From Octopus vulgaris (taxonomy: Eukaryota), in contig OX597833.1 in the NCBI GenBank assembly GCA_951406725.2, forward strand, positions 9,424,001-9,488,000: 64,000 nucleotides of DNA. Reading direction: 5' to 3'. Each line of letters begins with the position of its first letter. Within the stretch, counting starts at the first letter, position 1. Both the position numbers and the translations under genes were made by a program. Below the pieces are notes generated by a model. That model made no database searches and was not told the origin of the DNA. It saw only the letters and a program-made list of their open reading frames with translations. Below, one piece after another: positions 928-55,860 of this stretch.

Positions 928-1061
928 TTTATAGAAAAATTAAAGACGAAGACAGGTGTAGGAGCAACAATCAGTATATTTAATTAACACTCGGGAAAAA
1001 TGGAAAAGTCTTTTACGTTTCGGTTTTTACCTGTCATTGTTTATTCACAATGCATTTTTTC

Positions 1062-1121
<60 letters not shown>

Positions 1122-1159
1122 TGTATGTATGTATGTATGTATGTATGTATGTATGTATA

Positions 1160-2520
1160 TACATCCTACATAATAACCACTTCATGTTTGACAATACATT
1201 TTACCGTAAAAAATCCGGAATTGCTATGGGTACAAGGGCAGCACCAGTCATTGCGAACCTAACAATGGGCTACCTGGAAATAATTGTATACCAGGAATCT
1301 TTATCGACCTTTGGAAACCCCCTCTCTCAATACATAAAAGAGAATTGGAAACGATTCCTGGACGATTGTTTTATATTCTGGAATGAAAACACAGATAAAC
1401 TCCTAAAATTCAAAAACCTATTGAACAGCATCAACCCAAATATACAGTTCACAATGGAATACAACCAAAAGGAGCTTCCATTCTTAGATATACTAATTAA
1501 AAAAATTAACCTTAAAATAGAAATAGACATTCTTTACAAAGCCAGAGACGCTAAACAATACCTACTTTTTGATTCATGAGAAAAGTTCAACACAACACAC
1601 CTTCCCCGAAAATACTGCCTTACATATCCACATACAACCCCAAAAACAAAGAAGCCTTCATCATCATCACCCAGAATTTACCAATACTTCATAAGGACCC
1701 CAAATTAAAGGAAATTCTAAACATACATAAAATCATTAAAAGCTACAAACAACCTAAATCACTTAAAAAGATTCTCACAAAGGCAAAATTGTTTTCTGAA
1801 ATTACGGATGCAAAAGTAAAAAAATGTGGTAGACCAAACTGTGCAACATGCCCAAACCTTCTAGAAGGATCAGAATTCCTCTTCAAAGAGGGACAAAAAT
1901 TCAAGATCAAATCTAATTTTACTTGTGCTTCTGAAAACATAATTTATGTCATAAGATGCTCGGGCTGCCACCAAAACTACGTGGGGTCCACGGGACTATC
2001 ACTCAGACGTAGATGCACACTGCATCGACAACAGATTGCATTCCCAGAATACAGAATGATACCCCTTAGTGTGCATATTGAGAAATGCGCAAAGCAACTA
2101 CTACCACAATTTTTAATCTTTCCATTTTATCAATGTGCTATTGGAACACCAACACAAATTAGACTAAACAAGGAAACATTCTTCATTGAAAAATATAAGC
2201 CCAAACTTAACCACTCTAACATTCTTATACAGAGAAACTCACCCCATTAAATAAAAGGGAAAATAAATATAAAGCGATTATCTCCCTTACGCCGGAAGAA
2301 ATCACTTATTACCTCCCCTTACCTGGAACTCTTCTTTACACTTCATAACGAAGACATAACACGATGTTTTGAGAAATTTGAAAAGTTAACACGAAACCGG
2401 TAATTTCTTCAAAAACTATGTCACTGTATGAAAAAATTTTATAACATTCTTCTAACATAATGACTCAAATATATTTTTTAACCTTTTAAAACAAGCCTTC
2501 TGTAGTTTTTTCACTTTTGA
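1160..2520 (+). mobile_element. Penelope-like element remnant (RT plus GIY-YIG endonuclease), 5'-truncated and internally deleted
   Basis: RT motifs GIAMGTRAAPVIANL, WKRFLDDCF, IQFTME...LPFLD; linker CGRPNCATC; GIY-YIG motifs IIYVIRCSGC...YVGST; degenerate hammerhead 3' half gaaaccggta at about 2393-2402; flanked by microsatellites. Confidence 0.9.
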
Positions 2521-2729: not shown

Positions 2730-3232
2730 CTATTTACTACACACAACGCACGTTAACTCCCTATAGTTCTCGTATGGAGGACTTGGCAACGAACCAACAA
2801 TAGCTTGTACGTGGTACAATAGAGCACCATCCTGATTTTGGTAGCCAGAATTATCAGCTTCAGCTTCTTTGTCGACACATATAAATTCAGTTCTACCTGC
2901 GTGCCTATAATGTTCTGTCATCAAATAACCTGAATACTCTATTTTCCAATTACCCAGACATTCTTTTCGACCAGGAATCATTATTACTGAAGCAGGTTCT
3001 TTTGTTTCACAGACCGCACAAGGGACGTCTTGATTTTGCAAAGTGTATGGTTTAGGTGCAAACATTCCAAATTTCGGACTTTTCTTAATGTCTGATACCT
3101 CATACTCAACACCGTATATAGTGGCAGCGTGTTCAAAAGTTTTTGTGAAATTACCCCATTGAGGTTTCATTGTAAGGCATAGATAGTTACTTCCGCCTCC
3201 ACTGTGTGAGTAAAACGATCCGGCAGCAACAC
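2730..3232 (-). CDS. Terminal exon of a gene encoding a short-chain collagen C4-like domain protein
   Basis: Open frame GVAAGSFYSHSGGGSNYLCL...IYGVEYE...DVPCAVC...MIPGRKEC...EYSGYLM...FICVD...ELTCVVCSK*, typical of this invertebrate family; acceptor gttgacag|GT with AG at 3233-3234, phase 1. Confidence 0.92.
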
Positions 3233-3629
3233 CTGTCAACAAATATGAGAAAATGTCAGTGTTTATTTTTGAAATAACTAATGAATCAAATTACATCTAC
3301 CATCGACATCACACCAAAAATGAGTGCAATGGTGAATAATTGTTCCATATAGCGATCACTCTAATTCACATTCATTAATTATCGTTGATAAACAAATATG
3401 AGATTTTAGTGAATTAAGAGTTGATTAGTTATACGTTCACACATTTCTTCTCAGAAGACGAATCAAAATTTGTTAAAAAAAAAGTATCTCGAGTAAAATC
3501 CATGTCTCGAGTTTTATTTCTGAGAAACTATTTGTGACGTTTAGTAATCTAGAAGTGGGTTGTGTTATAGTGTGGAACTTCTCGAGACATAAATAACCAA
3601 TGTTGGGGTGAAGCATTATATATGCTTAC

Positions 3630-5121: not shown

Positions 5122-5707
5122 ACACACACATACACACACATACACACACATACACACACACATACACACACATATCTGTATGAGTGGACAAACAAAAGAC
5201 AAAAAACACCCTCTCTCTCTCACACACGCACACATACATTCAGAAGCATTAAATGATAGGCGAAACACAAATAAGGACACATGTTGGTTTTAAATTTTGA
5301 AACAAGGCCAGTAATTTCGGTGGAGCGAGTGAATCGATTCCAGTCCTCAACTGGTAATTATGTTATCGACTCCGACAGGATGAAAGACAAAGGCAACCTC
5401 AATGGAGTTGTAGGATAGATATTAAAACATGAAACATACCGAAAGGTGGTTTACTTGTCGGATTTTCTCTCTGAAATTAGAAAAAAACATATTTAATGTT
5501 AGTTATGTAATATATATTTGTTGTCCTTTAGCTCCATGTTAATTATGATTAAGAGAATTATGATCAAAAAGTTCAAGATATAATTTTGAATGGACGTTTG
5601 ATTACATTATCATTATCATTATCATTTAATGCTTCTGAATGTATGTGTGCGTGTGTGAGAGAGAGGGTGTTTTTTTCTTTCGTTTGTCCACTCATACAGA
5701 TATGTGT

Positions 5708-11763: not shown

Positions 11764-12121
11764 ATGCGTGCGTGCGTGCGTGCTGTTTGTGCGTTTCTGT
11801 GTGTTTCTATGTGTGTATCGGGATTGGTTCAACAAGAATCTGTTTTGAGAGAGTTCCCCACTGGGCCTAGAGCAACACTGTCTCTATTAACAGCGAATAA
11901 AAACTCTAGCATTACTCACATCAAGAAAACCTTACACTACGTAGTAAACATGAGCGGCATACAGTTAGAATCCTCTTAGTCGCACCAAATGCTGAGCTCC
12001 AGAATCAGCGAGGGTTTTTCCTGAAGACATATCTTCAGCAGAGACAAAATCGTGTTCGAACCTACAGCTTCTGCTGAAACTCGACAAGTTTAATTTGTCA
12101 AAAATCCGTGCAGCACGGATT

Positions 12122-12172
12122 TTTGTCAGTGAACAGGTCGCGGTCTTAAAGCGACGAAAATATTTTGACAAA
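12122..12172 (+). ncRNA. Minimal hammerhead ribozyme motif with swapped G3:C8 core
   Basis: tttgtca-GTGAACA-g-gtcgc-ggtcttaaa-gcgac-GAAA-atat-TT-tgacaaa: 7-bp stem I, 5-bp stem II, palindromic stem III. Confidence 0.7.
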
Positions 12173-12398
12173 TTAAACTTAATTGTTGAAGTGAATCGAA
12201 CGGCTTTTGTGTGTTTCTTGAATGGCTTACAAACACCTTCCATACTGCAACTGTTTTCGTTTCAGCACACGATCTCAGATCAAATCACTTGCTATGCAAG
12301 TACATCTCAGTAAAGAAATAGTTTACACAAAATTGCCATGTATTACCGAGATGAACTTACCAAGGATATATATATAAACAAACTTTAAATTTTCTTAC

Positions 12399-13611: not shown

Positions 13612-15979
13612 AGCAGAATTGCTCGGCGATGCTCGGGGTTGAATTGCTTGAAAGTACTGTTAATGATTGCACTGAATTATGATGATTATTCAGGCAAATA
13701 TTGATATAAGTTTACGGTGGGAGATAAGGACTTAACGATCAAACGTGTGCCATTGCATTGTTTTGGGGGAACCAAATTTCTAATGAGCATTATAGGGGCA
13801 CCAACTTTAAGTTTAAGAATGTGTGGTGGTAGTCCGGGGGGCTCAAAGGAATTGAGTATCTCTATTGGATAGTTGATGACGACCTCTGGGTCAGGAGTTG
13901 TATCGATAGACTTATATACATAGACATCCCCAGGAATGAGTTTTAGCATTTCATCATTAATATGGTGAACAGTTTTATTCCTCGGGGCCAGAATAGCCCT
14001 TTGGCCAATACAATCCATATTCTGATAATTAGCTTGTAGATTTGGGAACACTGCATCTCTGAGATCAGAAGGCGTTTTAACAATGGTACAAATGGAATCG
14101 ATGGCAATATTACCATTTTCATCCCCTGGTATTTTGCCTTCGCCAAGTGTAAGGAGGGTGTGAGAAAATGCTGCTGATGTGATATTACGTCGCATATGAG
14201 CACATATATTGATGTGAAGTTTGAGAGTCTTCACCAGTGGCCACAATGTGGATGACTTAAGACACGCACTTACTGCATCAGTTCTAGTCCCTTTGGGAAT
14301 AACGGGAAGTGTTTGTCGGAAGTCCCCTGAAAGAAGAAGTGTTATGCCTCCCATGGGAGCTGAAGAGTGTTTGATGTCTCTGAGAGATCTATCTAGTGCC
14401 TCAAGAGCACGTCTGCGGGCCATCGTGCATTCATCCCAAACGATAAGCTTGCATCGTTTGAAGACTTCTGCCTGATCGGAGCTGTTACTGATGCTGCAAG
14501 TTGTGTCTCAGTCTTCGCTAAGTCAAGCGGGAGCTTGAAAGTGGAGTGAGCTGTCCTGCCGCCTGGCAACAAAGTAGCCGCAATTCCAGATGATGCCACA
14601 GCTAGGGCAATGCCTTGTGTTCGCCTAATCTCAGCCAATATTAATTTGTTGAGAAAAGTTTTCCCAGTGCCCCCAGGAGCGTCCAGGAAAAATATTCCCA
14701 CAGCTTTGGCCCGGACTGAATTAACAACGGAGTTGTAAGCGAACTTCTGTTCTGGAAGGAGCTTTGGCTCATTTTCGGCTATGTACTTGGCAAGCTCGTC
14801 AACATTAAAACATGTCTCACGCAGCAAATGTGAAGACAGAGTGTTTGTGCCTTCCCGGTTTGTTGAAGGTAGGCCATAGACCGGCAAGGCACTAACGCCC
14901 ATATCAAGTACAGTATCTTCGAACGTAGTTTGTTACCACACAGCCACACCTGCCCCTATGTATGTGTGTGTGTGTGTACGTGTGTGTGTATGGGTAGATA
15001 TATTATGCATGTATATATGTGTATATATATATGTGTACATATTACATGTACATCTATATATATATACATCTACACATAAAATACAAAATAGAAAGTTATA
15101 TCTTGATATCGCGAGTGATAACAATACTCAAAATATATAACAGACTGGAATTGTAGGCCCGTCTCTTGCAATTTCGATCAATTGGATCTTGTATAGAAGT
15201 GTACGGCTGCAGCGAAATTCATTTTTGGACTTTCTTCTATCGAAGGCATTTTAACAAAAATGCTTCCGTAAAGACGGTGAAAATATTGTCAATTTCCCCA
15301 AACAGGGACACAATTCAATTTTAAAACAATGACCAAAGCCCCTTCTCCGAAAGGGGGAGGGTTACGATTTACAATTATTTAACAAATGCAACACAACAAC
15401 GTTTCCCTGACGAGGAACCAACAAACGTGATTACAATAGTCAAACAGTAATAATAATAACAACAAACCTTTTTAATGTATCCCCATTTATGTGAAACCAC
15501 TTATTCAAGTTCAAGTCATTGATGCAATTTTATACGAATTGCTAATACACACACATAATAAGGGTGAAAAATTGAATACTAATTTGATTAATATGAATTG
15601 AAAACCAGTGGTGTAGCATACAAGACCACAGAGGATCTTCTTCTAGCAAAAAGGATGACCAGTATTAATTGCTCATCCCTTTTATATAAATACTTTCACT
15701 TTAATTGTTGCACACTTGCAAAGAGAAAGGAGGAGAAAGTGTAGTGGTAATGGTAGGAGTGAAGCACTTGAAATGAATGAGGGAAATGGTAAAATATTTA
15801 CTTTTCTCGAATTTTTGCTTAATTGGGGGTGAAATTGAAAAAACTTTACATGCCACGACCCGATGGAATCTACTTGTAAAAATGATAGGTAAATTCCAAT
15901 TGAAAAAATTCTATATTGTAGAATTGTATAAAAAACGAACGATTTGGGAGGCAGAGAAAATCTGCCTTTTATCATAAGA
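13610..15979 (-). mobile_element. Non-autonomous Helitron (family A) carrying a PIF1 helicase fragment
   Basis: 5' TCTTATGATAAAAGGCAG at 15979; 3' hairpin ccccgagcatcgccgagc followed by CTGG|T at 13610; no Rep domain seen. Confidence 0.85.
13686..14902 (-). pseudogene. Helitron PIF1-family helicase fragment, frameshifted
   Basis: FFLDAPGGTGKTF (Walker A), VASSGIAATLLPGGRTAHSTFKLP, GDFRQTLPV, AILAPRN, LKVGAPIMLIRN...CNGTRL; frameshift near 14500. Confidence 0.92.
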
Positions 15980-16487: not shown

Positions 16488-19400
16488 CCCTTTCGTTACT
16501 ATATTTCTGACCAAAATACACCCCTTATGTGTTTCAATGAATTTCTAACGTAATCATAAATTTAGTCTGGTTTCATTAAACAACTATAACTTTTTTATTT
16601 ATGAATATATTAATCTGATTTTTGGAAGATAATTTAGTGAAATGTTCTCAACCAATTCTATACCAATTCAATTAATTCTATAACCAATTCAATTAATCTT
16701 GAAATTCTAACCGAGGCTTCCGCGCTTCTGGACTGGCGATCCCTGATGACGTTGTCCTCAGTTGACGAACTATGGTCATTCCTCAAAGCATATGTAATCT
16801 GTTTGACTGACCAGGCAGTTCCCGTTGGGCTTCCTAAGAGGAAGAAACACAAGCCCTGGGTGACGAAGAAGGTTAAACGAGAACGTCGACTCAGAGATAT
16901 TGCTTGGGCTGAATTAAAAAATCTGGATTCGACTGCAGCTTTTAATGGTGTACAAAACTCAACGAGACCGAGCCGTGAAAATTGAAAAGAAAGAACGCTT
17001 CAGTTATGAATACAAAATCGCGGCAAATGCCAGTAGCAATTCAAAAACCTTCTTTGCCCATGTCCAGCGGAATTCCCGCTTGAACAACCAGATTGCAACG
17101 TTGGTAAACTCAACAGGCGTATCGATTGAGGACCCTTATCAACAGAGTCAATTATTTGCCGAGGCTTTTTCAACTATTTTCAAACAAGATGATGGTCGTG
17201 AACCCCCTCCATTTGATAGATCGGTACCTCCAATGCTTCGATTGATCATCACGCGGGACGAAGTCAAACGTGTTATTCAAGGCCTCGATGTCAACAAGGG
17301 TCACGGCCCTGACGGCATACACCCACGGGTTATCAAAGCGTTGGCTCCGGTCATCTGCGAGCCCTTAACACGACTATTCAATATGTCATTGGCGACGGGT
17401 GTTATACCTGCAGACTGGAGAACAGCGATAATCTGCCCAATTTTCAAGAAAGGGAGCTGCGAAGACCCGCTTAACTAACGACCGGTTTCCCTTACATCAA
17501 TAATCAGCAAGATGTTCGAAACCATCCTTAAGAAAAGTATGATGCTCCACCTCCTAAACACAGCCTCGATAACTGATTCCCAACACGGCTTCGTGCCGAA
17601 GAGATCATGCTTGACCAACTTACTAGTAATGGAAGAATTGGTGACGAGCATCCTCGATGATAGTGATGCTGTTGACATCGTTTTATTGGACTTTGCCAAA
17701 GCTTTTGACTCGGTAAACCACCGCCTACTACTTGTCAAGCTTCAAGCATATAGTTTCCACCCGGATATTGTACGATGGGTTGGTGCCTTCCTCTCAGATC
17801 GCTCCTTCCAAGTTCAAGTTAATAGTTCGCGGTCCGACGTCTCCAGTGCGAGCAGTGGCGTGCCTCAAGGTTCAGTGCTTGGGCCCTTGTTGTTCTTAGT
17901 CTTCATAAATGACTTGCCCGACGACCTCACGCAACACACCCTTCTATTTGCCGACGATATCAAACTGGTCGCTCCTCGCGGTAGTATAGAGGATCTTCGT
18001 CGATGCCTCCACCAAATTTGGAAGTGGTCTAACGATTGGGACCTGTGTCTGAACGTGTCAAAGTGCTGTCATCTGCCTGTCGGCTCTACTCCTGCAACTC
18101 AACTTGATTTCGAGCCGGGTCGTCTGCTGCTGGAGATGACCGATCAGGTAAAGGACCTGGGTATCTTGGTGGATTCCTCCTTTTCGCCTTCGGCCCAGTG
18201 CGTCCATGCTGCCAACAAAGCGCGCGGAATTCTGTTTTTGATTCGACGGTCATTCGGAATGCTCACAGCAGCCATATTCCTGCCACTCTATGTCACGCTG
18301 GTGAGACCCATATTGGAGTATGGGATTCAAGCCTCTTCTCCTTATCTCCTCAAAGACATACAGCATCTCGAAAGAGTCCAGAGGCTGGCTACCCGCATGG
18401 TTCATGGTCTCAAAAATTTGTCCTACGAAGAAAGGCTGAGGACGCTCGACCTTTATTCTCTTGAAAAACGCCGCCGCCGTGGTGATCTCATTCTCGCCCA
18501 CAACATCATAAGCGGGAAGTGTAACCTCTCGAAAGAGCTGTTCTTCACTCCTGCTCCGGAGCGTCGGCTGCGGGGTCATTCCGAAAAGCTCTACCTGCGA
18601 CGATTTCATCTCAATCGAAGGAGAGGAGCTTTCTCCGTCCGGGTTGCGGATCCGTGGAACAAGCTGCCAGACGAGATGGTGAAGATGCCGACGACCGCTT
18701 TGTTCAAAGCCTCCCTGGACCTCAAGTGGCCTGAACTCTTTACATGAACACCACCCTGTACTTAACTCCATGTCCCCCTACATGGCCTTGCTATTTGCTT
18801 TTGAGCCAAATTAACTAACTAACTAACTAACTAACTATACTATAATTTTTGTCACAAAGTGACTCTAATTGCAGGTAGATACAGGTAAATTCAACAATAT
18901 ATAAAATTATTAAAATTTTGTTCAAACATCGCTATAAAAAATGGGTTATTAGCTAATATTCAATTGGGTATACAACAAAATTTTACGCTAGAATTTGTTA
19001 TTCTGGGTAACTTTCTAATACCCATAATAATATTTATGGCAAAATAGGCCTTAATTTCATTTAAGGTTGTGGGAAATAACAAACTATCGTTTCTTTCGCT
19101 TTGTTTAGGTTGAACGTAACAGTTCGTTTCCGCCGTAATGATTTCAAATAGGCTCATTCGAAAAAGTAAAAAGAAATAGTCTAAGGCTTTACTCTTCTGG
19201 GAAAGTCTGTGGCTTGGTCCAGTTTCTTCAGAAAAATCACCGAAAGAAACAGTTTTTAAATTTTCACTCCATTCAGGTGCCAAATCATTTTCTTTATCGC
19301 TGTCGGAGATCTCAGATTCACTGTTTTCAATTTCGGAAAATGAAACATCAGATTCATTATCAAATACCACATGCTTTTTTTTTTCAGTCATAGAGTTAGA

Positions 19401-20987: not shown

Positions 20988-21310
20988 AGTTACAGAGATG
21001 TACTTGCATAGCAAGTGACTTGATCTGAGATCGTGTGCTGGAACGAAAACAGTTGCAGCGTTGAAGGTGTTTATAAGCCATTTAAGAAACACACAAAAAC
21101 CGTTAGATTCACTTCAACATTTAAATTTAATTTGTCAAAATATTTTCGTCGCTTTGAGACCGCGACCTGTTAGCACGATATTTTTGTCAGTGAACAGGTC
21201 GCGGTCTCAAAGCGAGAAAATATTTTGGCAAATTAAATTTAAATGTTGAAGTGAATCTAACGGTTTTTGTGTGTTTCTTAAATGGCTTACAAACACCTTC
21301 CACGCTGCAA
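20988..21310. mobile_element. Fold-back element centred on a G3:C8 hammerhead motif
   Basis: 21052-21171 is mirrored by 21193-21310; right arm has tttgtca-GTGAACA-ggtcgc...; the longer left arm is the reverse complement of 12133-12312; flanked by (TA)n. Confidence 0.85.
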
Positions 21311-21328
21311 TATATATATACACACACA

Positions 21329-28599: not shown

Positions 28600-29117
28600 T
28601 GTTTAATCTGTTGAGTGTATATGAGTAATAATAATAAAGATTTGTCTTGGTATAAAAGATGGGCCACAGCAAATAGTCTGCTCAATACCGCAGGTTTGCT
28701 TGGCAGTTGTTTGACCATAACCAGTTGAGCATGTCCCTTGGTCCCTGACGATATGTGAATCTCTGATCACGAGCAGAAGTAGTGGGGCAGCATCATAGCC
28801 ATGTATTGAAAGGAATTCTTTGAGGTTTGGATAATTCACCTTTGGAAACATGGGTGCTACGTTCAACATCCTTAAACAACCCTTATTTAGGGACCTTTTG
28901 AGCAGGAGGGGCTACTCGATCTGAAGAAAATTTTAATTGGGCCCCACCTGTAAGGTCATGCGCTTTTATCTTGATATAAGATGACGATGTCGCGCACATG
29001 TGGGTGTGATGCGTGTGCCTGGTGTACGCTTACCAGACAGGTAGTCATGATGGGTATACTGGGATTCGTATACTTTACCACAGTATCACATTTATGGCCT
29101 GCACTGCTCTCTTACTA
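28600..29117. repeat. Unclassified interspersed-repeat-like segment abutting (AAT)n
   Basis: GC-richer non-coding block between LINE fragments, ending directly at the microsatellite; no convincing ORF. Confidence 0.35.
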
Positions 29118-29165
<48 letters not shown>

Positions 29166-29170
<5 letters not shown>

Positions 29171-32100
29171 TTATAGACGAGTTAGATCAATACTAAAAAC
29201 AGAGCTCAATGCTAAAAACAAGATAATAGGTATTAACACTTTAGCTGTCCCAGTTATAAGTTACAGCTACAATATCCTTAACTGGACACTAAATGAACTG
29301 ACCAAAATAGATAGGAAAACAAGAAAAATAATGACAGGATCTAGGATGCATCACCCAAAATCTGACATAGAAAGACTATATATACAACGTGTAGAAGGTG
29401 GTAGAGGCCTTATACAACTGGAAAACTACTATAAAATAACCACCATAGGACTGCAAAAATATCTACTTCAGAAGGAAGGAAAACTGATACAAATAGCGGC
29501 AAAACACGAGCAAAACAAAAAACTGTTCTCAGTATTTAAGGAAGCTGACAAATACAAACAAGAAATCATACCACCTAATAAATATGAAGAAGAAGAAGAA
29601 GAAGAAGAAGAAGAAGAAGAAGAAGAAGAAGAAGAAGAAGAAGAAGAAGAAGAAGAAGAAGAAGATGAAGAAACAACAAAAGCTATAAAACAAATGAAAT
29701 CCAAACGCTTCTTTGAACAGAACAAAAAGTTCAACTCCAACCCCAAAAAGTTCTACCAAGAACTGGGCAAAAATAAAATAGAAGTCACTGCAGCACCAAC
29801 GGCAGAAGAATTGGAAGAATTCTGGAGAGAAATATGGTCGGCGAACGTACAGCCCAAAATAAGGTGTATCAAAATTACAAACTCGGCATCTGAACTACTT
29901 TGGACCCCCATAACAACTGAAGAGGTCACCCAGGCACTGCAAAAACTAAGCAACTGGAAGGCACCTGGGCATGACAAGATCCCCAACTTCTGGTTGAAAT
30001 ATCTAACAGAAATGCACAAAAAGCTGGCTGAAAACTTTAACAGCATACTAGCAGAGCCAGAGACAATGCCTGAATGGCTCACGAAGGGAAAACCATCTTA
30101 ATTCCCAAATCAAATGAAACAGCAAAACCAGAAAACTACAGACCAATAACCTGCCTCCCTACTATGTTCAAGGCATTTACTGCAGTGATATCGCCAAGGC
30201 TGAACAAGCACCTGGACGAAAACAAACTGTTCCCAGAAGAGCAGAAAGGATGCCGCAAAGGCTCATATGGCTGTAAAGATCAACTAATGATTAATAAAGC
30301 CGTAACTGAAGACAGCCACAGAAAGAAGAAAGGCCTCAGTATGGCCTGGATTGACTACAAAAAGGCGTTTGATTGCATCCCCCACACATGGATCCTCGAA
30401 ACACTAGCCATTAACAAAGTAGCACCAACAATCATAAAATTCATAGAGCACTCTATGAATAAATGGCAAACAGTCCTACACCTCCAAACAAAAGAGGGAC
30501 TCATGAAAACCAAAGACATCCCCATTAGAAGAGGAATATTCCAGGGAGACACACGCTCTCTCCACTCCTTTTCTGCTTGGCACTGTCACCTCTATCTGAT
30601 ATGCTAAATAGAACTGGATGCGGATATAAATGTTATAAATGCAAAACCATCAGCCACCTTTTATATATGGATGACCTAAAACTATACGCTGCAAATGACA
30701 AACAGCTGGAAACACTATTAAAGACAGTTCATGGATTTACCAAAGAAATAGATATGAAATTTGGATTAGAAAAATGCGCCAAAGTAACCATGAAAAGAGG
30801 AAAACTAGTTAAGAGTAACAACATCACACTAGATAAAACCAATGAAATAAAAGAATTAGACCAAAGCCAAACTTACAAATACTTAGGAATCCATGAACTA
30901 GATAAGACACAACACACACAAATGAAAGAGAAAATAAAAAAAGAATATTATAGACGAGTTAGATCAATACTAAAAACAGAGCTCAATGCTAAAAACAAGA
31001 TAATAGGTATCAACACTTTAGCTGTCCCAGTTATAAGTTACAGCTACAATATCCTTAACTGGACACAAAATGAACTGTCCAAAATAGATAGGAAAACAAG
31101 AAAAATAATGACAGGATCTAGGATGCATCACCCAAAATCTGACATAGAAAGACTATATATACAACGTATAGAAGGTGGTAGAGGCCTTATACAGCTGGAA
31201 AACTACTATAAAATAACCACCATAGGACTGCAAAAAAATATCTACTTCAGAAGGAAGGAAAACTGATCCAGATAGCAGCAAAACACGAGCAAAACAAAAA
31301 ACTGTTCTCAGTATTTAAGGAAGCTGACAAATACAAACAAGAAATCATACCACCTAATAAACATGAAGAAGAAGAAGAAGAAGATGAAGAAACAACAAAA
31401 GCTATAAAACAAATGAAATCCAAACTAAAAATAGAACAGCAACGAACCATGATAAAACGATGGCAAGAAAAGCCCCTTCATGGTAAATACTGCACTAAAC
31501 TAAACGCAAAAGAAATAGACAAAGAAAAATCCCAGCAATGGTTGAGAAGCTCAGGACTCAAAGCAGAAACAGAGAGATTTTTAATTGCAGCACAAGACCA
31601 AAGCCTCCCCACCAGAAATTACCAAAAACATGTAATGAAAAGAAATATTACAAGTAACTGCAGAATATGTGGAGATGGACAAGAAACAATAAATCATATT
31701 ATCTCTAGCTGCCCAGTCCTGGCTAAGAAGGAATATATTCACAGACATGACAAAGTTGGAACCTACATACATTGGAAGCTATGCCAACATTATGGAATAA
31801 CAACAGAAAAAAGATGGTATAGGCATACGCCAGAAAAGGTCACAGAAAATGAGAAAGCAACAATACTATGGGATATGCCAATACACACAGATAGAGAAAG
31901 TAAGGCCAATAGGCCAGATATAGCTGTCAGAGATCAAGAAAAAAATGCTTTCTACTTGCTTCATCAATACCAACAGATGACGTTTCTCTAAAAAAACAAA
32001 CAAAAAAAAAAACAAACAAATGGAGTAACTTTCAAAATACAAAGACCTGGAAATAGAGGTAACTCAAATGTGGAGTCTAAAAACAGAAACAATTCCAATC

Positions 32101-42562: not shown

Positions 42563-45500
42563 ATAATGTTCGTCCTTCGGCTCGAAGATGACCAACTGAC
42601 ATCATCTGATGGAACTGCCGCCATGAGACCTGAGGTGGTTGGTGAGGCCAATCCGGGCAAGGAAGCCCCTCCCACAGGTGGGGCAGAAGTGGGTAGGGGC
42701 CGTGCTACTGGTGCAGGCGGCTCTGTCTTTACGCATCTGACGTTTCTGCTCCGCTGACCGAATCCGTCCCTCCTCGGCTGTCCCTGCTCCCACGGTGATT
42801 GCGCTGCGCCAGGATGAGCGGTTGGCAGCAAGTGTCTCCCAGGTCTCTGTTCCGATGGAGAAGTCTTTGAGAGAGACCTTGAGACTATCCTTGTAGCGCT
42901 TCTTCTGCCCTCCGACTTTGCGCCTGCCCTGGCCGAGTTCACCGTAGAAGAGCTGTTTTGGGATGCGAGTGTCGGACATGCGGGAGACGTGGCCCGCCCA
43001 TCTCAGCTGGGCCTTGCGCATGATTGTGATGGTGCTAGGGAGATCTGCCTGCTTCAGAACTTCCGTGTCTGGGACTTTGTCCTGCCAGCGGATGTGAAGG
43101 AGGTTCCGAAGACACCTGAGATGGAAGTGGTTTATCTGGCGCTCGTGCCTTCGGTAAGCAGTCCACGTCTCGCAGCCGTATAGTAGGGTGGTAAGCACGA
43201 CTGCCCGGTAGACTTTCAGCTTGGTGTTGAGGCTGATTCCTCTCCGCTCCCAGACTTTCTTTCGCAGTCTCCCAAACGCGCTGCTTGCCTTGGAGATTCT
43301 GTTGATGGTTTCAGCATCTATGTTGGCATTGCAGGAGAGAGTGCTGCCCAGGTAGGTGAAGTTTTCCACCACTCGTAGGATCCGTCCGTTCACCCTTATC
43401 TGAGGCTCATGGTATTGTTTGCCGGGGGGCTGGCTGAAACATCACTTCGGTTTTCTTGGCACTGATGGTGAGACCGAAGATGTCACAGGCTGATGAGAAC
43501 CTGTACATCTCGAGCTGCATCTCCTGCTCATCGATTGCATTAAGGGCGCAGTCGCCAGCAAAGAGAAAGTCTCTGACGACTGTCCCCTCTGTCATTCCGT
43601 CGTGGAACTGGCGGACAATTGCAATAAATTTGCTGGGGCAACCAAATTTTCCCATGACCTTCCATAGTCCCTCCCGACTGACTGTATCAAAGGCCTTGGT
43701 GAGGTCAACAAAGGTCATGCAGAGGTCAAGGTGCTGGCGGGCGGCGAATATCATGTCAGTGGTCCCTCGACCCGCGCGGAATCCACACTGGCTCTCAGGG
43801 AGAAGGCCTTGCTCCAAGTGTTCCAGAAGGCGGTCAAGCAGGACCCGGGCCAAGATCTTGCCTGCTATGGACAAGAGGGAGATACCTCGGTGGTTGTTGC
43901 AGGACTGCCGATCTCCTTTCCGCTTATAAATGTGGACGATTGTTGCGTCCCGGAAATCTTGAGGGAGTTGTTCCCTGTCCCACATCAACTGGAACAGGCT
44001 GGTGAGCTGACTGATCATGGTGGGGCCGCCCGACTTGAACACCTCTGCAGGGATGGCGTCAGAGCCTGGAGCTTTGCCGGTGGACATTTTTTTGATGGCT
44101 CTGCTCACTTTCTCGACTGCAGGGGGAACAGCCAACTCGTGGTATGTCGGCACCTGGGGGAGTCGTGCGATTGCTTCCTCGTTGATCTGGGCTGGTCGGT
44201 TGAGCACGATGTTGAAATGCTCCGCCCATTTCTCCAGGATCAGCCTCTTGTTAGTCAGGAGTGAGGTTCCATCCGAGCTGAGCAGGGGGGGTTGATCCAA
44301 AGGAGAACTGCGGTCCATAGACAGCTTTCAGCGCCTCGTAGAATTTCTTGGTGTCGTGTTTGTCTGCGTATCCCTGAATCTCATCCGCCTTGGCGCTTAA
44401 CCATGCGTCTTGCATGAGGCGGAGTTTAGCCTGGACTGTGCTGCGAATGTTGTTGAAAGCGGCCTTCTTTGCCGTGCAGGTGGTGTCATTTTGGTGAGCC
44501 CGCAGCAGACGGCGTTTCTCTTCCAGGAGCTTTTGGATTTCCTGGTCGTTTTCGTCGAACCGGTCCTGGTGGTTCCTCGTAACTTGGCCCAGAGTTTCAA
44601 GGGCGATGGAATGAACCGTGTCCCTGAATGATTCCCACTGCTCATCGATGCTGGACTGGTCACTCCGAATGTCCAACAGCTTGCTGTCCATACGTGACTG
44701 GAGATCTTGTGCAGTCAGCTGGTTCTTTAATTTCGTGATGTTAAGCTCCCTCGTCACTTTCTGACCCTGTGGTCTTCTCTTAGGTCGGATGTAGAAATCC
44801 ATCCTGGAGATGATGAGGCGATGGTCCGTCCAGCAGTCAGCTCCGCACATGGCTTTGACCAGTTTCACGTCCCGCCTGTCTTTCGCCCTGACGATGACGT
44901 AATCTATCAGATGCCAATGTTTGGAGCGTGGATGCATCCATGATGTCTTGTTGCGTGTTGGCAGACGGAACAAGGTGTTGGCGATGGTAAGATCATGGGA
45001 GGCACACGCACGCAGGAGGAGCTGTCCGTTGCTGTTGCACTTTCCGATTCCTTGCTTTCCCAGTACGCGATGCCAGGCTTGGTGGTCAGTCCCGACACGG
45101 GCGTTAAAATCCCCAAGGAGGATGAGCTTCCCAGGCTGGGCTGACGTGATGAGGGAGTCGAGTTCCTCATAGAACCTGTCCTTAACTTCTTCAGTGTTGG
45201 TCATGGTGGGGGCGTAAGCACTGATGATGGTCGCACTAGTCTTGTTTCCAAGTGGGAGCTGCATCTTCATCAGCCGATCGTTGATACCCTCGTGGGGGGG
45301 GGGAGCTTTCCAGTTTCCGCACGTGTACTGACAATGGCAAAACCAACACCAGCCTCACGACGCTCTTCGCTGCTGCGACCACTCCAAAAGAAAGTATAGC
45401 CGCCGCCTGTCTCTGTCAGCTGGCCTTTGTCCGCAAGGCGGGTCTCGCTCAGTGCTGCAATATCGACATTGTATCGGCTCAGTTCTCTGGCCACCAGGGC

Positions 45501-47770: not shown

Positions 47771-50090
47771 TTAACAAAATTCCTTTTTATTATTTTCTAC
47801 ATATGTTTCAAAGGCTGCAAAGTCCCTAATTCGGATTGAATAAGGAGTCCATTTTGCAGCCTTCTCTTCAGGAAAATCCAGGAACTTAATTCTCCAACAA
47901 AATGCACAGCAAGCTTTTCGACAAACGCTCACGAGGAGCCCATGGAATAAATGGCACAAACAGTCTGTCAAAATGCGTTGAAAGAAATGAAAGAAATGGC
48001 ACAAACAGTCTGAAAGAAATGTATGCCGTTTCCAGTGTGTGCATCTGAAAGAATTTTGCACAATCGAGTTAACAAGGTGCCCTCGGGCGAACAGAATATG
48101 AAAGAGTTCCGAGTTGCAAAGAGCACAGATTTTTTTGCCTTTATCAAACGGTATAGACACCGATAAAATTGACCATTCCAGTCTAAAATTTGAATTCGCG
48201 TTCTTCAAACGCCAGACTAATTTACTTAGTCCCGTAGCGTGTTTCTTTTCCTCATCACGAAACGTGGAAAAATGATTCGATATTCTAACAGCCAATTTCG
48301 ATGATGAAGCTCCGATATACATGTAGACATCTGAATCAGTATAAACTCTGCACTGGTAAATGGCGTTTCTAATCTTGGAGTTACTAGATAAGAACCTTAT
48401 TCTATTGGGATTGGTTTCCGATATTAATACAGCGCTCTTATTACTATGATGATTGTAAAAACTACCGCTGGATTCGATATTATTCACCCCATTATCATTA
48501 CTATTTAATACAATATCATCTGCATGCTCCCAGCTACTGTGAATGCTGTGATTGCTAATGTCCGTAATGCTACTGTTGTTAAAACCGCTGCTAATATTGT
48601 TGTTGGGACTCCCTACATTAATGACTAGATCAGTGCTCTTATCCTTATTACCATTACTTACGTTAATGACGAGATCATTGCTCTTATCCTTATTACTATT
48701 ACTAACACCAATGTTGGTATGGAGGTTGCTAATATCTGTGCCAGTACTATTATTATTATTATTATTATTATTATTACTGCGTGTTATGTTGGAATTAGAC
48801 GGAGCAGAGTCTCCGCTCATGGGTGAGAGGGTCTTATTTAGCAGCTTATTGTTATGGGAGGAAATTATCTGTGAAAGATTTTTAGTATTGGAGAAGGCTA
48901 TCCTAACTTTGTGTGAATTTACAGTGGAGAAATATCTTGAATTTCTGGGAAAATTTCTGGCAATTGCTTGGCGAAACTGCAACGGTAGGTTAGATCTTAT
49001 TTGTTTACCAAAGGGAATTACAAACCAAATATAGTTTTTCCTGTTCTTGTACTGGCTCGGGGAGTCATCTCTAACATTAAGGTGGGTATCTCTGGGTTGA
49101 ATAATGGGTTTTGGCTTACTATGGCCTCCCCTGGACCGCAAATTATTTATGTTATCTATATTTATGCTAGTTGTACTTGTATCGGCATTCCTCAGGCTAC
49201 CATCACTACTTATATTATTTATGTTATTGTAACTTGCCTTATCCTGATGATAGAATGCTGGTTTCGGAAGGGCCGGGTCTATATATGCTACCTTCTCCCT
49301 ATATCCGGCTTTTGACAGGGCGGCATTATAAAATTCCGCTTTCTGCCTAAAAATGTCAACGTTGGCAGACAAATTAGTTAATCTTTGAGAAATTTTTTTA
49401 ACCAAATTGTCTGTTATAGTTTTTGCGTGGTTAGAGAAAACACTGACATACTTTAAGTTAGTGGAAGGTTTGTGGTAGGGGCAGTAAGAATCGCTATGCA
49501 GGTCTAGTGTGACATATAAGAAATTTACCTTGGTAAGTTCGTTATCAAAGACTATGCTCATGCCCATTCTATTAAAGAACCTAGCTAATCTATTTTTAGT
49601 TTTCTGTATCATTCTATTCGGGTTGTTCTGTAAGTAAAACAGACAATCGTCACGATATAGGCCGCCTCCGATGTCCGGGAATTGGTCGGATAATTCATAA
49701 AGAATATAGATTCCGACCAAATCGGCAACCTGGGCGCTATCTGAACTACCCATAGGTACATCGAACTCGTTGGGAGTATCCTTACGAACCCATAACTTAT
49801 CTTCAAACTGTATAAAGGATTTTCTGGCGACTAGAATTATATCAATTTCTTCTCTTGTGAGGCCTGCCTTATTATGTGCATGCCACAGGGCCTTATTGAG
49901 TACACTAGGGTTAATCGAGGGGTAGAAATTAGCAATATCGAACTGAATGAACTTAGTTCTGTTTTTATTAGGGATAGAAGAGAATCACTTTACGACTTGC
50001 GAGGAGTTCGCCCAAAGGTTAAGCTTAAGCTTATTAACTAAACTAGGAATGTATTTGTCTAAAATGTACGTCGGCTTTCACCTAGCCTGG
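47771..50090 (-). pseudogene. PLE RT plus GIY-YIG polyprotein, one in-frame stop
   Basis: FIQFDIANFYPSI, FDVPMGSSDSAQVADLVG, GLYRDDC, YHKP, IWFVIPF, IYQC...YIG...RISNH, CALCNSE, CTH; TGA at 49985-49987. Confidence 0.9.
47792..47877 (-). ncRNA. Hammerhead ribozyme motif in the 3' pLTR
   Basis: Reverse complement of 50197-50282. Confidence 0.85.
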
Positions 50091-52195: not shown

Positions 52196-54455
52196 GGTCG
52201 AATAACTTTCTGGATCTCTGCTTCATGAACAATATGGACATCATTCATGATGTGAAAGTGACACCGACATTAGTCTCGGATCACAACATAATAGAGCTGT
52301 TTATGTTTGTGCCTAAGGTAAACAGAGACATATAGCCTACAGGAAACACCCGAAATCTCTCCAATCTGAACTTTCACAAAGCAGATTGGAAATCGATCTA
52401 AAAAGAGATCCTCAGAGAGGACTGGCCGAAATGTCTCTCCACACTAGACATTGACATGAAACTAGAATGTTTCATGTCTTCTGTGCAAGCCGTATGCCAG
52501 AAATATGTCCCAGAGCACAAGGCCAAAACAAATAGGAGCAAGATTCCAAGAGACAGGAGGATCATCATGAGACGACGGACGAAGGTTGCAAATCGACTCA
52601 ACCAACATCCCAAAAGTAGCGAAACGTCCCGCCTAAAACAACACTGATGGAGATCGAAAAAAGGCTGCAACAATCCTATATGAGGGAGAAAGCAGACAAA
52701 GAAACCTGGGTTATAAAAAACATAAAATCAAACCCAAAGGCTTTCTTTCATTACGCGAAAGAAACAGTCTCAGTACACTACAAGATAGGGCCCCTCCTCC
52801 AAAAGGATGGCTCACTCACAGACAGTCCAACTGAGATCAGTGAGATACTGAATGATCAATTCAGAAGTGTCTTTACCACCCCGTTGTAACACAGACAAGT
52901 GAACGAACCAGTGGATTTTTTTGCCGTCTCACCTATAACCAGCGAAGCAGTTACGATAGAATACATTGACATTAGCGAAGAAGATATACTACTAGCCATA
53001 GATGAAGTGGACACAAACTCAACTGCTGGTCCTGATGGTTTCCCAGCAATTCTCCTCAAATCGTGTAGGCATGCCCTGGCAAAACCCCTCTAGATTCTCT
53101 TCCAGAGCTTTCTTGCAAATGGCAGACTGCAAAGCAAGCTGAAGGAGAGAATAATATGCCCAATACATAAAGGGGGAAGTAGAGCAGATGCCAAAAACTA
53201 TAGGCCTATCTCTCTGACTTCACACATCAGCAAAGTCATATCCCACAAATTGCGTGACCTCGGCATAGCTGGAAAACTTGGAGTGTGGTTACATGACTTC
53301 CTGAAAGATAGGAGTCAGGCAGTAGTGATTAATGGGGCCACCTCTATGAACACACAAATAGTGAGCGGTGTTCCACAGGGCACTGTCTTGGGACCACTGC
53401 TTTTTATAGTGGCCCTCTCAGATATGCCCTAAAATGCCCGTATAGCCACTCTGGCAAGCTATGCAGACGATACGAAAGTCTCACAGAAAATACAGAACTC
53501 CAGCGATGTTGCACACCTGCAGCAGGAGTTGGACTCAATTTACAGATGGGCTGAGGATAATAATATGCAGTTTAATGCTGAAAAATTCCAGGCCCTGCGC
53601 TACCAGCATCCAAAACTGAATATTAAACTTACAGGGTACACCGGTCCACAGGGAATTTCAATCCCAGAGCCTAAGTCTGTGAGGGACCTGGGTATCGACA
53701 TGAGTGATGATACCTCTTTCCAAGTGCACATTACCAGGATGGCGACAAAGTGCAGACGACTGACTGGGTGGATTCTAAGAACATTCAGTACCAGAGATAA
53801 GGAAACCATGATGGTCCTCTGGCGGACATTCGTCCTCAGCCGCCTGGATTACTGCTCACAGCTATGGTCACCCACCAGTGTGAAAGTAACAGCGGACCTT
53901 GAAGCAATCCAGAGAAGATTCACGAAGAAGATCGTCTCTTTGCAACAGCTCAGCTACTGGGAAAGGTTGAAACAGCTAAGACTCTATTCCTTGGAGAGAA
54001 GACGGGAGAGGTATGCAGTAATATATATCTGGAAGATCCTGGAAGGAATTGTGCCAAATTTTGGCATTGTAAGCTACACCAATGCTAGAACGGGGCGACA
54101 CTGCATAGTGCCAAATATCCCAGCAATGCCATCACGCTTCAGAACTAGCTACTGCAACAGCCTGGGTTTCAAGGGCCCACAGCTTTTTAATATTCTCCCA
54201 AAGAGTCTGAGGAACTTGCACAAAGTAGATGTAGCGGTTTTTAAATCAAAGCTGGACATCTTCCTGTCGAGAGTCCCAGATGAACCTACCCCACGGCAAG
54301 AGGTGCAAATGAGAGTAGCTATATCAAACTCCATTCTTCACCAAGTGCCACATATTAGAGGAGGCTCTTAGTAATAACAGTGTAGCAGAAAACGGCGGTG
54401 CATCAGCATGGCCGCAGTTCTGAGCTGAAACAAAGACAAAAAACAAAAACAAAAA
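52196..54455 (+). mobile_element. Degenerate CR1-group LINE, 5'-truncated with an RT deletion
   Basis: NNFLDL...SDHNII (end of APE), NPKAFF, AGPDGFPA, YRPISLTSH, GVPQGTVLGPLLF, YADD, LYSLERRRERY; QHGF/KAFD region missing near 53240; several stops. Confidence 0.92.
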
Positions 54456-54519: not shown

Positions 54520-55731
54520 TAAGGTATGTAGAAAAATACAACATTGACAAGAACGTATAACTCTTAGAAGACGATACAATAAACACGGACAGGACATTCG
54601 AAACCCTCAGTCTTCAGTCAAGAACCGGATCATCGTAGTAATTTCGGCTGATTAATCTTGAGATTACTAGATCACGGCCAGCCCTCAAAGAAAAACTAAG
54701 CAACGAGCATTAGAAAAACTAAGCTGGGAGCGTAGATTTCCTGGAAGAAGGATCGAATGCATACGGACACCAGGACAGCAAAAGGGACGAATATAAAAAA
54801 ACAAAAAAATAATGGAATACAGAAACATGAAATACAGAAGCATTAACGGTGAAAACAACAACAAGTGTCTTACGACTGATAACAAGCAAACAAATTTTTT
54901 CTCTGGCGCAAGGAAAGGAGCCTTATCGGCGATGCCTATAGCGGCGGACGAAAAACAACGATGTTAACACAACGCTGGTCAGAAGCTGAAAGGCAGATTT
55001 CGGCCAGCAGTCACGTGACAGAGGAGAGAGAAAAGAAAAGAAAGAGAAGCAGCGGAAGAGAGAGAGAGAGGAGAGAGAGAGAGGAGGGACAAACGCAACA
55101 AAGAGAGAGAAGAGAGAGAAAGAAGGAATCAGAGAGGAGAAGGGATGGGTGTCGAAGATTGACCTGTGAGTGCAGAGCGAGACAAAGAATTAGGAGGGTA
55201 GTGGAAGATTAGACCAAAGAATCAGAGGAAAGAGAAGAGAAAAAGAGGATGAGTAGAGAGAGAAGGGGACAGATCAAGTAAAAGAGAGAGAGAGAGAGAC
55301 AAACAAAGAATCGTACCAGTTATTAAGAATATGTGCTCACATTAATGTTAAGAGGGTACGTGGCGCCTGGAATATATGTTAAGGTATGTAGAAAAATACA
55401 ACATGGACAAGAACGTATAACTCTTAGAAGACGATACAATAAACACGGACAGGACATTCGAAACCCTCAGTCTTCAGTCAAGAACCGGATCATCGTAGTA
55501 ATTTCGGCTGATTAATCTTGAGATTACTAGATCACGGCCAGCCCTCCAAGAAAAACTAAGCAACGAGCATTAGAAAAACTAAGCTGGGAGCGTAGATTTC
55601 CTGGAAGAAGGATCGAATGCATACGGACACCAGGACAGCAAAAGGGACGAATATAAAAAAACAAAAAAATAATGGAATACAGAAACATGAAATACAGAAG
55701 CATTAACGGTGAAAACAACAACAAGTGTCTT
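54519..55731. repeat. 353-bp direct repeats (54519-54871 and 55379-55731) around a purine-rich spacer of about 507 bp
   Basis: Copies differ at only about two visible positions; no coding similarity recognised. Confidence 0.92.
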
Positions 55732-55799
55732 GTTATATTTCGGAATGGTCATTTTGCCAGTTTAGCCAATAAAAAATCTTGCACAACAAATATTTAAAC

Positions 55800-55860
<61 letters not shown>

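What the first reader, a model, noticed from the sequence alone, without database searches (positions are those of the whole stretch)
12122..12172. Natural hammerhead motif with a compensatory G3:C8 swap in the catalytic core
Seen: all hammerhead elements are in register (7-bp stem I tttgtca/tgacaaa, stem II gtcgc/gcgac, GAAA, palindromic aatatt stem III, UH site), but the core reads GUGAACA instead of CUGANGA. The same core is present in the second copy at 21190-21196, so it is a family trait rather than a one-off mutation. Known: positions 3 and 8 form a tertiary Watson-Crick pair in the full-length hammerhead, and swapping both can rescue activity lost by either single change. Inference: selection kept this ribozyme functional, and searches that require CUGANGA would miss this family. 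An extra G lies between A9 and stem II.
Basis: partly seen in the sequence, partly recalled or inferred. Interest (0 to 1): 0.85.

Follow-up and report, generated by a model that had tools for sequence, protein, structure and literature searches.

The report
Octopus retroelement hammerhead, swapped core pair
A 51-base stretch at the end of an octopus Penelope-type jumping gene has the layout of a self-cutting "hammerhead" RNA with two paired core letters swapped (G3-C8 instead of C3-G8); thousands of copies share the swap and two sister elements use other matching pairs at the same place, so it is likely a working natural variant that standard searches would skip, though cutting is untested.

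Summary
Observation confirmed. 12122-12172 is a minimal type I hammerhead with core GUGAACA (G3:C8). It is the family consensus: 5,711 of 6,354 genomic matches, and no C3:G8 copy among the 14 changed at both positions. The parent is an endonuclease-bearing Penelope-like element (RT, CxxC linker, GIY-YIG). The motif is non-coding, lies in the pseudo-LTR, and its predicted cut is 56 nt before the ATG.

Two sister families in the same genome (one clade, support 1.00) carry C3:G8 and U3:A8 at the same place, with compensatory stem changes; a metagenomic relative has C3:G8. So positions 3 and 8 covary between families, which supports selection on the fold in master elements.

Limits: cleavage is untested; the window copies are truncated, and copy 2 is damaged; the youngest sister family has C at position 9, so core constraint may be loose.

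Natural U3:A8 and engineered G3:C8 are published. I found no natural G3:C8 in the papers I could search; five key papers were not held. This scan noted single G3:C8 candidates earlier in phage and protist DNA (unchecked by me). Verdict: new variant of a known kind, moderate interest.

The parts
12122..12172 (+). Minimal type I hammerhead motif with G3:C8 core, extra G between 9 and 10.1, 6-nt palindrome in place of stem III, U17
12129..12135 (+). Core GUGAACA (G3=12129, C8=12134)
12165..12166 (+). Predicted cleavage bond (3' of U17), by analogy to hammerhead numbering; not shown
   Evidence: inference
12109..12313 (+). 3' end of the pseudo-LTR plus tail of the parent Penelope-like element (family A), 91-92% identical to the tandem copy L099
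   Evidence: (blastn)
12222..12313 (+). First ~30 codons of the element's ORF, cut off at the tail end
   Evidence: ATG 92 nt after N3 in L099, whose loop II is 1 nt shorter
12086..12111 (-). Short inverted remnant of the same pseudo-LTR in which the hammerhead is missing between two short TTTTG repeats; forms a hairpin centred on 12112 that competes with stem I
21172..21311 (+). Second copy, short arm: G3:C8 core at 21190-21196, C11.1 missing, one G.U wobble in stem I; damaged
20990..21171 (-). Second copy, inverted long arm with tail; hammerhead truncated inside the core

Best explanation
The motif is the minimal type I hammerhead of an octopus Penelope-like retrotransposon family whose consensus core pair is G3:C8, and it likely still cuts the element's RNA slowly, 56 nt before the start codon, with predicted help from a second copy or the element's own protein. 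Shown: anatomy, family consensus, position in both pseudo-LTRs of a tandem element, and three different Watson-Crick pairs at 3:8 in three sister families. Inferred: the 3:8 tertiary pair forms as G-C and keeps the 2'-OH of nucleotide 8 in place; stem III forms between two copies through the AAUAUU palindrome or is stabilised by the RT/endonuclease protein; purifying selection acts on the transcribed master elements; U17, shared with both sister families, probably made G3 tolerable by avoiding a G3-C17 mispair. The two window copies are truncated insertion products and probably do nothing.
For: Anatomy complete. 5,711 of 6,354 matches carry GTGAACA. Tandem pLTR-ORF-pLTR copy L099 has the motif at 5241 and 9502. 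ORF has RT motifs (DKSG, DVVS, YSRYVDD), CQSNCAVC linker and a Pfam GIY-YIG hit (E 1.8e-05). Families A, B, D form one clade (FastTree support 1.00; identities 54-61%) with G3:C8, C3:G8, U3:A8 at the same position before homologous ORF starts; metagenomic relative L163 (41% identity) has C3:G8 behind its ORF. Stem II pairs 3 and 4 and stem I pairs 2 and 3 change on both sides between these families. Among 132 family A copies, columns with a shared variant (8% or more): 0 of 42 core/stem columns, 4 of 8 loop II columns (Fisher p 0.0003), 19 of 193 other columns (p 0.029). Copies whose ORFs are only 79-83% identical in protein keep G3:C8. Of 15 further distinct descriptor hits in flanks and L163, 13 have a Watson-Crick 3:8 pair (8 U:A, 5 C:G). 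In an Anolis Penelope hammerhead, C3G and G8C each abolish cleavage, the double mutant partly restores it, and cleavage needs the element's protein (PMC11167929, passages).
Against: No cleavage data; all four runs laid were contigs, which cannot show RNA ends. The youngest sister family B has C at position 9 in 95 of the first 100 listed of 3,385 matches, so a core position can change in a successful lineage. Hammerhead mutants did not affect insertion in vitro, and no RNA-seq reads ended at the cut in Anolis (PMC11167929). The all-A/U stem III duplex is marginal (-0.2 kcal/mol) and the dimer fold is 2 kcal/mol less stable than two monomers; G3 can pair with U17 in the ground state. Within family A, copies changed at both positions show no excess of pairing (6 of 14 Watson-Crick, all A3:U8 double transitions). 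The 132 copies were not a random sample and the 8% cut-off is arbitrary. Only three octopus families and one outgroup could be tied to an ORF.
Confidence: 0.68

Rival explanations
1. The hammerhead fold, including the 3:8 pair, is conserved but no longer cuts at a useful rate; it serves as a structure for binding the element's protein, for translation or for RNA processing next to the likely intron end.
For: Family B thrives with C9. Penelope minimal hammerheads have low activity in vitro and the authors do not exclude other functions (PMC4209133). Insertion did not need cleavage in vitro (PMC11167929). The motif lies just after a branch-point/acceptor-like sequence.
Against: All other catalytic positions (U4, G5, A6, A9, G12, A13, A14, A15.1, U16.1, H17) are kept in family A across subfamilies; a binding-only role would not obviously need them.
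Confidence: 0.2
2. The motif is a decaying relic: two neutral changes happened to restore a pair and were carried to high copy number by the element's amplification.
For: High copy number reflects amplification of a few masters, not selection on copies; double-changed copies look neutral; given two changes from C3:G8, 3 of 9 outcomes pair.
Against: That the only two changes among 11 conserved core positions fall on 3 and 8 and pair is about 1/55 x 1/3 (my arithmetic). Core and stems stayed fixed while loop II and flanks changed between subfamilies. Sister D shows a second, different double change.
Confidence: 0.1
3. The motif is a chance look-alike inside a palindromic repeat and unrelated to hammerheads.
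For: No Rfam hammerhead match among 12 hits with E up to 10.
Against: Rfam also misses the canonical relative. Shuffled controls give no such hit. The motif sits where Penelope hammerheads sit and where sister families have C3:G8 and U3:A8 cores.
Confidence: 0.02

Closest known systems
Minimal type I hammerheads in pseudo-LTRs of Penelope-like elements (Cervera and De la Pena 2014, PMC4209133; main text parts 1-3 of 4 and supplement parts 1-2 of 3 read)
   Same: Location in pseudo-LTRs; no stable stem III but a short palindrome; extra nucleotide between 9 and 10.1; G10.1-C11.1; U17 common; pairs of motifs on opposite strands; natural U3-A8 covariation in Schistosoma.
   Different: G3:C8 core: 0 of the 56 representatives in their Fig. 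S3 has it (their descriptors fixed the core); 7-bp stem I is longer than their 4-5 bp; no cephalopod among the 56.
Natural U3:A8 hammerheads (Perreault et al. 2011, PMC3088659, section 8 read)
   Same: Natural compensatory change at the 3:8 tertiary pair.
   Different: U3:A8 keeps pyrimidine-purine order and needs two transitions; G3:C8 reverses the order and needs a transversion at both positions.
Engineered C3G/G8C double mutants (Anolis PAc hammerhead, PMC11167929, passages; Schistosoma hammerhead, Martick and Scott 2006, not held, seen only as cited)
   Same: Same pair; partial rescue of cleavage, in PAc within a Penelope element.
   Different: Laboratory constructs; here the pair is the natural consensus of a family with thousands of copies.
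Neptune/Nematis-type endonuclease-bearing Penelope-like elements (Craig et al. 2021, PMC8557442, passages)
   Same: RT followed by a CX2-5CxxC linker and C-terminal GIY-YIG; partial tandems, inverted 5'-truncated copies, a tail on one end, insertions next to (TA)n.
   Different: Tail about 55-60 nt instead of 30-40; clade (Neptune or Nematis) not resolved because no named reference sequences were available.

Membership tests
Hammerhead ribozyme (type I, minimal) | Stems I and II around the core in type I order | tested here: met
   7 + 5 Watson-Crick pairs; in the minimum-energy fold; two-sided changes between families
Hammerhead ribozyme (type I, minimal) | Literal CUGANGA consensus | tested here: not met
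   Core is GUGAACA
Hammerhead ribozyme (type I, minimal) | Watson-Crick complementarity between positions 3 and 8 (the structural requirement behind the consensus) | tested here: met
   G3:C8; sisters C3:G8 and U3:A8
Hammerhead ribozyme (type I, minimal) | U4 G5 A6, A9, G12 A13 A14, A15.1-U16.1, H17 | tested here: met
Hammerhead ribozyme (type I, minimal) | Stem III, or a palindrome able to form it in a dimer | tested here: inconclusive
   AAUAUU is palindromic but the duplex is -0.2 kcal/mol; dimer fold -25.4 against -27.4 for two monomers
Hammerhead ribozyme (type I, minimal) | Site-specific self-cleavage 3' of position 17 | not testable with these tools
   Needs an in vitro assay; the runs available were contigs
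Rfam hammerhead families | Covariance-model match | tested here: not met
   No hammerhead among 12 hits with E up to 10; the canonical relative L163 also gives none, so the test does not discriminate
Endonuclease-bearing Penelope-like element | Single ORF with RT and C-terminal GIY-YIG endonuclease | tested here: met
   1025-aa open frame in L095 with RT motifs and PF01541 above its cut-off; no Pfam RT hit for family A, weak RVT_1 for family D (E 0.008)
Endonuclease-bearing Penelope-like element | Pseudo-LTRs in partial tandem, inverted truncated copies, tail | tested here: met
   L099 tandem; inverted pairs L062-L064, L095, L100-L102; two preferred ends about 55-60 nt apart
Neptune versus Nematis clade | CX2-5CxxC linker between RT and endonuclease (both clades) | tested here: met
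   CQSNCAVC at residue 896 of the L095 frame
Neptune versus Nematis clade | Placement in an RT tree with named references | not tested
   The tree had no named clade references

The most novel reading that the evidence does not exclude
An active natural G3:C8 hammerhead is the consensus of a retroelement family with over 5,000 copies, and one small octopus clade has sampled three of the four Watson-Crick pairs at the catalytic 3:8 position. Reaching G:C needs two transversions through an unpaired state, which would mean Penelope hammerheads are under real but intermittent selection, buffered by protein-assisted folding and a permissive U17, and that CUGANGA/UUGANAA surveys undercount animal hammerheads by whole families.
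Probability: 0.55. Interest if true: 0.58.

Novelty: new variant of a known kind. Interest (0 to 1): 0.46.

Why it matters
It supplies a natural case of the purine-pyrimidine reversal of the hammerhead's 3:8 pair, so far seen (in the papers I could search) only as an engineered rescue mutant. It comes with a built-in comparison: three sister retroelements in one genome with G:C, C:G and U:A. Whether Penelope hammerheads need to cut at all is an open question; these three families, including one with C9, make it testable by side-by-side assays. It also shows that descriptor-based ribozyme counts miss families with thousands of copies. It does not change the known mechanism.

Tried and rejected
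Rfam on the whole window: the 150 listed of 245 hits were mostly microsatellite-driven microRNA matches, with no hammerhead among them; targeted scans gave none for the motif or for a canonical control.

Coding constraint on the core: rejected, the ORF starts 92-93 nt after N3. A simple non-autonomous palindromic element unrelated to Penelope: rejected once copies were found joined to the RT-endonuclease ORF.

Within-family covariation: none; 14 double-changed copies were A:U 6, A:G 3, A:A 2, U:G 2, U:U 1, C:G 0, U:A 0. C2:171242607 and 171246062 looked like a tandem element but are a local duplication with no ORF. P0001 was searched as a possible third family and proved to be family B.

Expression and RNA ends: no RNA holder listed on record; only contigs could be laid, so no start or end could be read. 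PDB sequence search with the ORF's C-terminal 711 aa: 0 hits. Flanks of the 119 non-octopus protein relatives listed could not be obtained, so only one outgroup hammerhead (L163, 1 of 3 metagenome loci) is known; L163 has no long open frame and is not in the tree. The first tree run did not finish; the tree used is FastTree on 42 rows and 589 columns, with 34 of the 120 listed relatives included.

Not held, so not read: Lunse et al. 2017, Hammann et al. 2012, Przybilski and Hammann 2007, Martick and Scott 2006, Scott et al. 2013. They, and figure-only or supplementary data, could contain a natural G3:C8 example.

Full report
Observation. Folded alone it gives stems I and II (-14.5 kcal/mol, z -2.47). 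A relaxed descriptor that leaves positions 3, 8 and 9 free hits only this site in the window and gives 15 hits in 6.04 Mb of shuffled sequence, none with G3:C8 and A9. The second copy has the same core at 21190-21196 but lacks C11.1.

Host and family. The genome is 2.8 Gb in 227 contigs; a protein that NCBI labels Octopus vulgaris matches one of its loci at 100%. With positions 3, 7 and 8 free, a 21-nt pattern matches 6,354 times; the exact G3:C8 form matches 5,711 times. Only 14 matches differ at both 3 and 8, none is C3:G8 or U3:A8, and the 6 that pair are A3:U8, the double transition expected from ordinary decay. G3:C8 is therefore the fixed family state, and genomic copies decay neutrally. 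Contigs of runs labelled as two further organisms also show the GTGAACA core in their loose-end consensus (runs X16 and X17).

Parent element. A pattern from the sequence upstream of the motif gave 422 matches. Inverted pairs among them enclose the end of an RT-endonuclease ORF. A protein search found a 1,025-residue open frame (L095) and a tandem copy (L099) with the motif at 5241 and 9502 on either side of the ORF (this copy's ORF has a stop and a frameshift). The protein has RT motifs, a CQSNCAVC linker and a GIY-YIG domain above the Pfam cut-off, the layout described for Neptune/Nematis Penelope-like elements (PMC8557442, passages). The start codon lies 92 nt after N3, so the core is non-coding. 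Most insertions are short: a long arm ending about 90 nt into the ORF and often an inverted short arm ending about 55-60 nt earlier. This matches the Penelope tail, explained by two reverse-transcription start sites inside the ORF (PMC11167929, passages). The window copies are such fragments. In copy 1 an upstream inverted remnant forms a hairpin that disrupts stem I in the 101-nt fold.

Covariation between families. Two sister families were found in the same genome. Family B (56% identity to A over the aligned part; 3,385 pattern matches) has CTGATGC, i.e. C3:G8 but C9, at the same place before a homologous start. Family D (54% to A, 61% to B; 525 matches) has TTGAAAA, i.e. U3:A8, behind its own RT-endonuclease ORF in the copies examined. 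A, B and D form one clade with support 1.00, (A,(B,D)), among 42 rows. A metagenomic relative with 41% identity has a canonical C3:G8 motif behind its ORF (L163). All four have the extra nucleotide and a 5-6 bp stem II, and stems I and II change on both sides between them. A, B and D share U17. Of 15 further distinct descriptor hits (flanking DNA and L163, one stray family A copy removed from 16 lines), 13 pair at 3:8 (8 U:A, 5 C:G); the 2 that do not are about what shuffles predict.

Conservation within family A. In 132 distinct copies, shared variants (8% or more) occur in 0 of 42 core and stem columns, 4 of 8 loop II columns and 19 of 193 other columns (Fisher p 0.0003 and 0.029). The sample was not random, included the 14 loci chosen for core changes, and the cut-off is arbitrary; G12 (7.6%, a CpG site) and one stem I position (6.8%, keeps a G.U pair) came close. 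Copies whose ORFs are 79-83% identical to the young family keep G3:C8.

How it likely works. Nucleotide 8 acts through its 2'-OH and is positioned by pairing with nucleotide 3 (established knowledge; PMC8495972, one passage, reports a 100,000-fold loss for G8C and partial rescue by C3G). In an Anolis Penelope hammerhead the same double mutant partly rescues cleavage, and cleavage needs the element's protein (PMC11167929). Here the stem III palindrome is marginal (-0.2 kcal/mol) and the dimer fold is slightly less stable than two monomers, so slow, dimer- or protein-assisted cleavage of tandem transcripts is the most likely mode. G3 can pair with position 17: -13.7 kcal/mol with U17, -15.9 with C17, against -12.4 for the open core. 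That fits a remark that G3-C8 works better without C17 (PMC3884650, passage, data not shown there) and suggests, as an inference, that the clade's U17 eased the swap.

Against. No cleavage was measured and no raw reads were available. Family B, the youngest (dozens of copies at 98-100% protein identity), has C9 in 95 of the first 100 listed matches; a change at 9 lowered activity at least 20-fold in one artificial construct yet occurs in a functional natural ribozyme (A to U; PMC10085705, passage). Hammerhead mutants did not impair insertion in vitro. Selection on the fold is better supported than selection on the cut.

What is known. Natural U3:A8 is reported by Perreault 2011 (section read) and in Schistosoma Penelope elements, together with the extra nucleotide and the palindrome (PMC4209133). 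None of the 56 representatives in that paper's Fig. S3 has G3:C8. Full-text searches for G3-C8, G3C8, C3G/G8C, GUGA, GUGANCA, 'positions 3 and 8', R3-Y8 and hammerhead + octopus + Penelope gave no natural G3:C8 report; PMC6765202, PMC13725137 (passages) and bioRxiv 2026.07.22.740005 (part 1 of 5) showed none in what I saw. Five relevant papers were not held, and figures are not searchable, so absence from print is not established. Earlier notes of this scan describe single G3:C8 candidates in phages, a protist element and another Penelope-type element; I did not test them, and no note matched this sequence.

Verdict. Real feature, new variant of a known kind. It works like a Penelope minimal hammerhead; it fails the literal CUGANGA consensus but meets the structural rule behind it. 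Interest 0.46.

Noticed in passing
L096:7891 (family B; G000 genome-wide): The youngest sister family, with many intact 1,310-residue frames, has C instead of A at hammerhead position 9 in 95 of the first 100 listed of 3,385 matches (3 have A9), and a non-palindromic stem III; a possible natural A9C variant or a sign that cleavage is dispensable.
   Followed up: partly
L228:3480 (family D): Older sister family with a U3:A8 minimal hammerhead (525 exact-pattern matches), AAUU palindrome and only a 3-bp stem I.
   Followed up: partly
L062:5434-5733: The family A pseudo-LTR has one GT(A/G)AG donor-like site and a branch-point/acceptor-like CTAAC...TTTCTCAG ending 14 nt before stem I: a possible 300-nt intron as in Drosophila Penelope; splicing not shown.
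   Followed up: partly
flanks of L010, L039, L041, L061, L101, L117, L145 and others: About ten further octopus minimal-hammerhead-like motifs, most with U3:A8, turned up in about 1 Mb of fetched DNA; U3:A8 seems common in this genome.
   Followed up: no
families A, B, D, between hammerhead and ATG: A GTGTGTT motif lies some 10-30 nt before the start codon in all three families although the rest of the spacer does not align.
   Followed up: no
window 55730-55805: Short inverted remnant of family B (tail region only).
   Followed up: no
window 962-2250 (+) and 47771-49984 (-): Fragments that look like other Penelope-type RT/GIY-YIG ORFs by eye; no Pfam hit at E 0.001 for the two frames scanned.
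   Followed up: partly
window 13686-14932 (-): PIF1-like helicase fragment (PF05970, E 6e-34), probably from a Helitron.
   Followed up: partly
window 2730-3290 (-): 186-codon exon-like open frame rich in Cys and Gly; no Pfam hit.
   Followed up: partly
window 16918-18747, 29010-31991, 42602-45354, 53433-54371, 59816-61800: Several LINE-type reverse-transcriptase fragments, judged from the translations.
   Followed up: no
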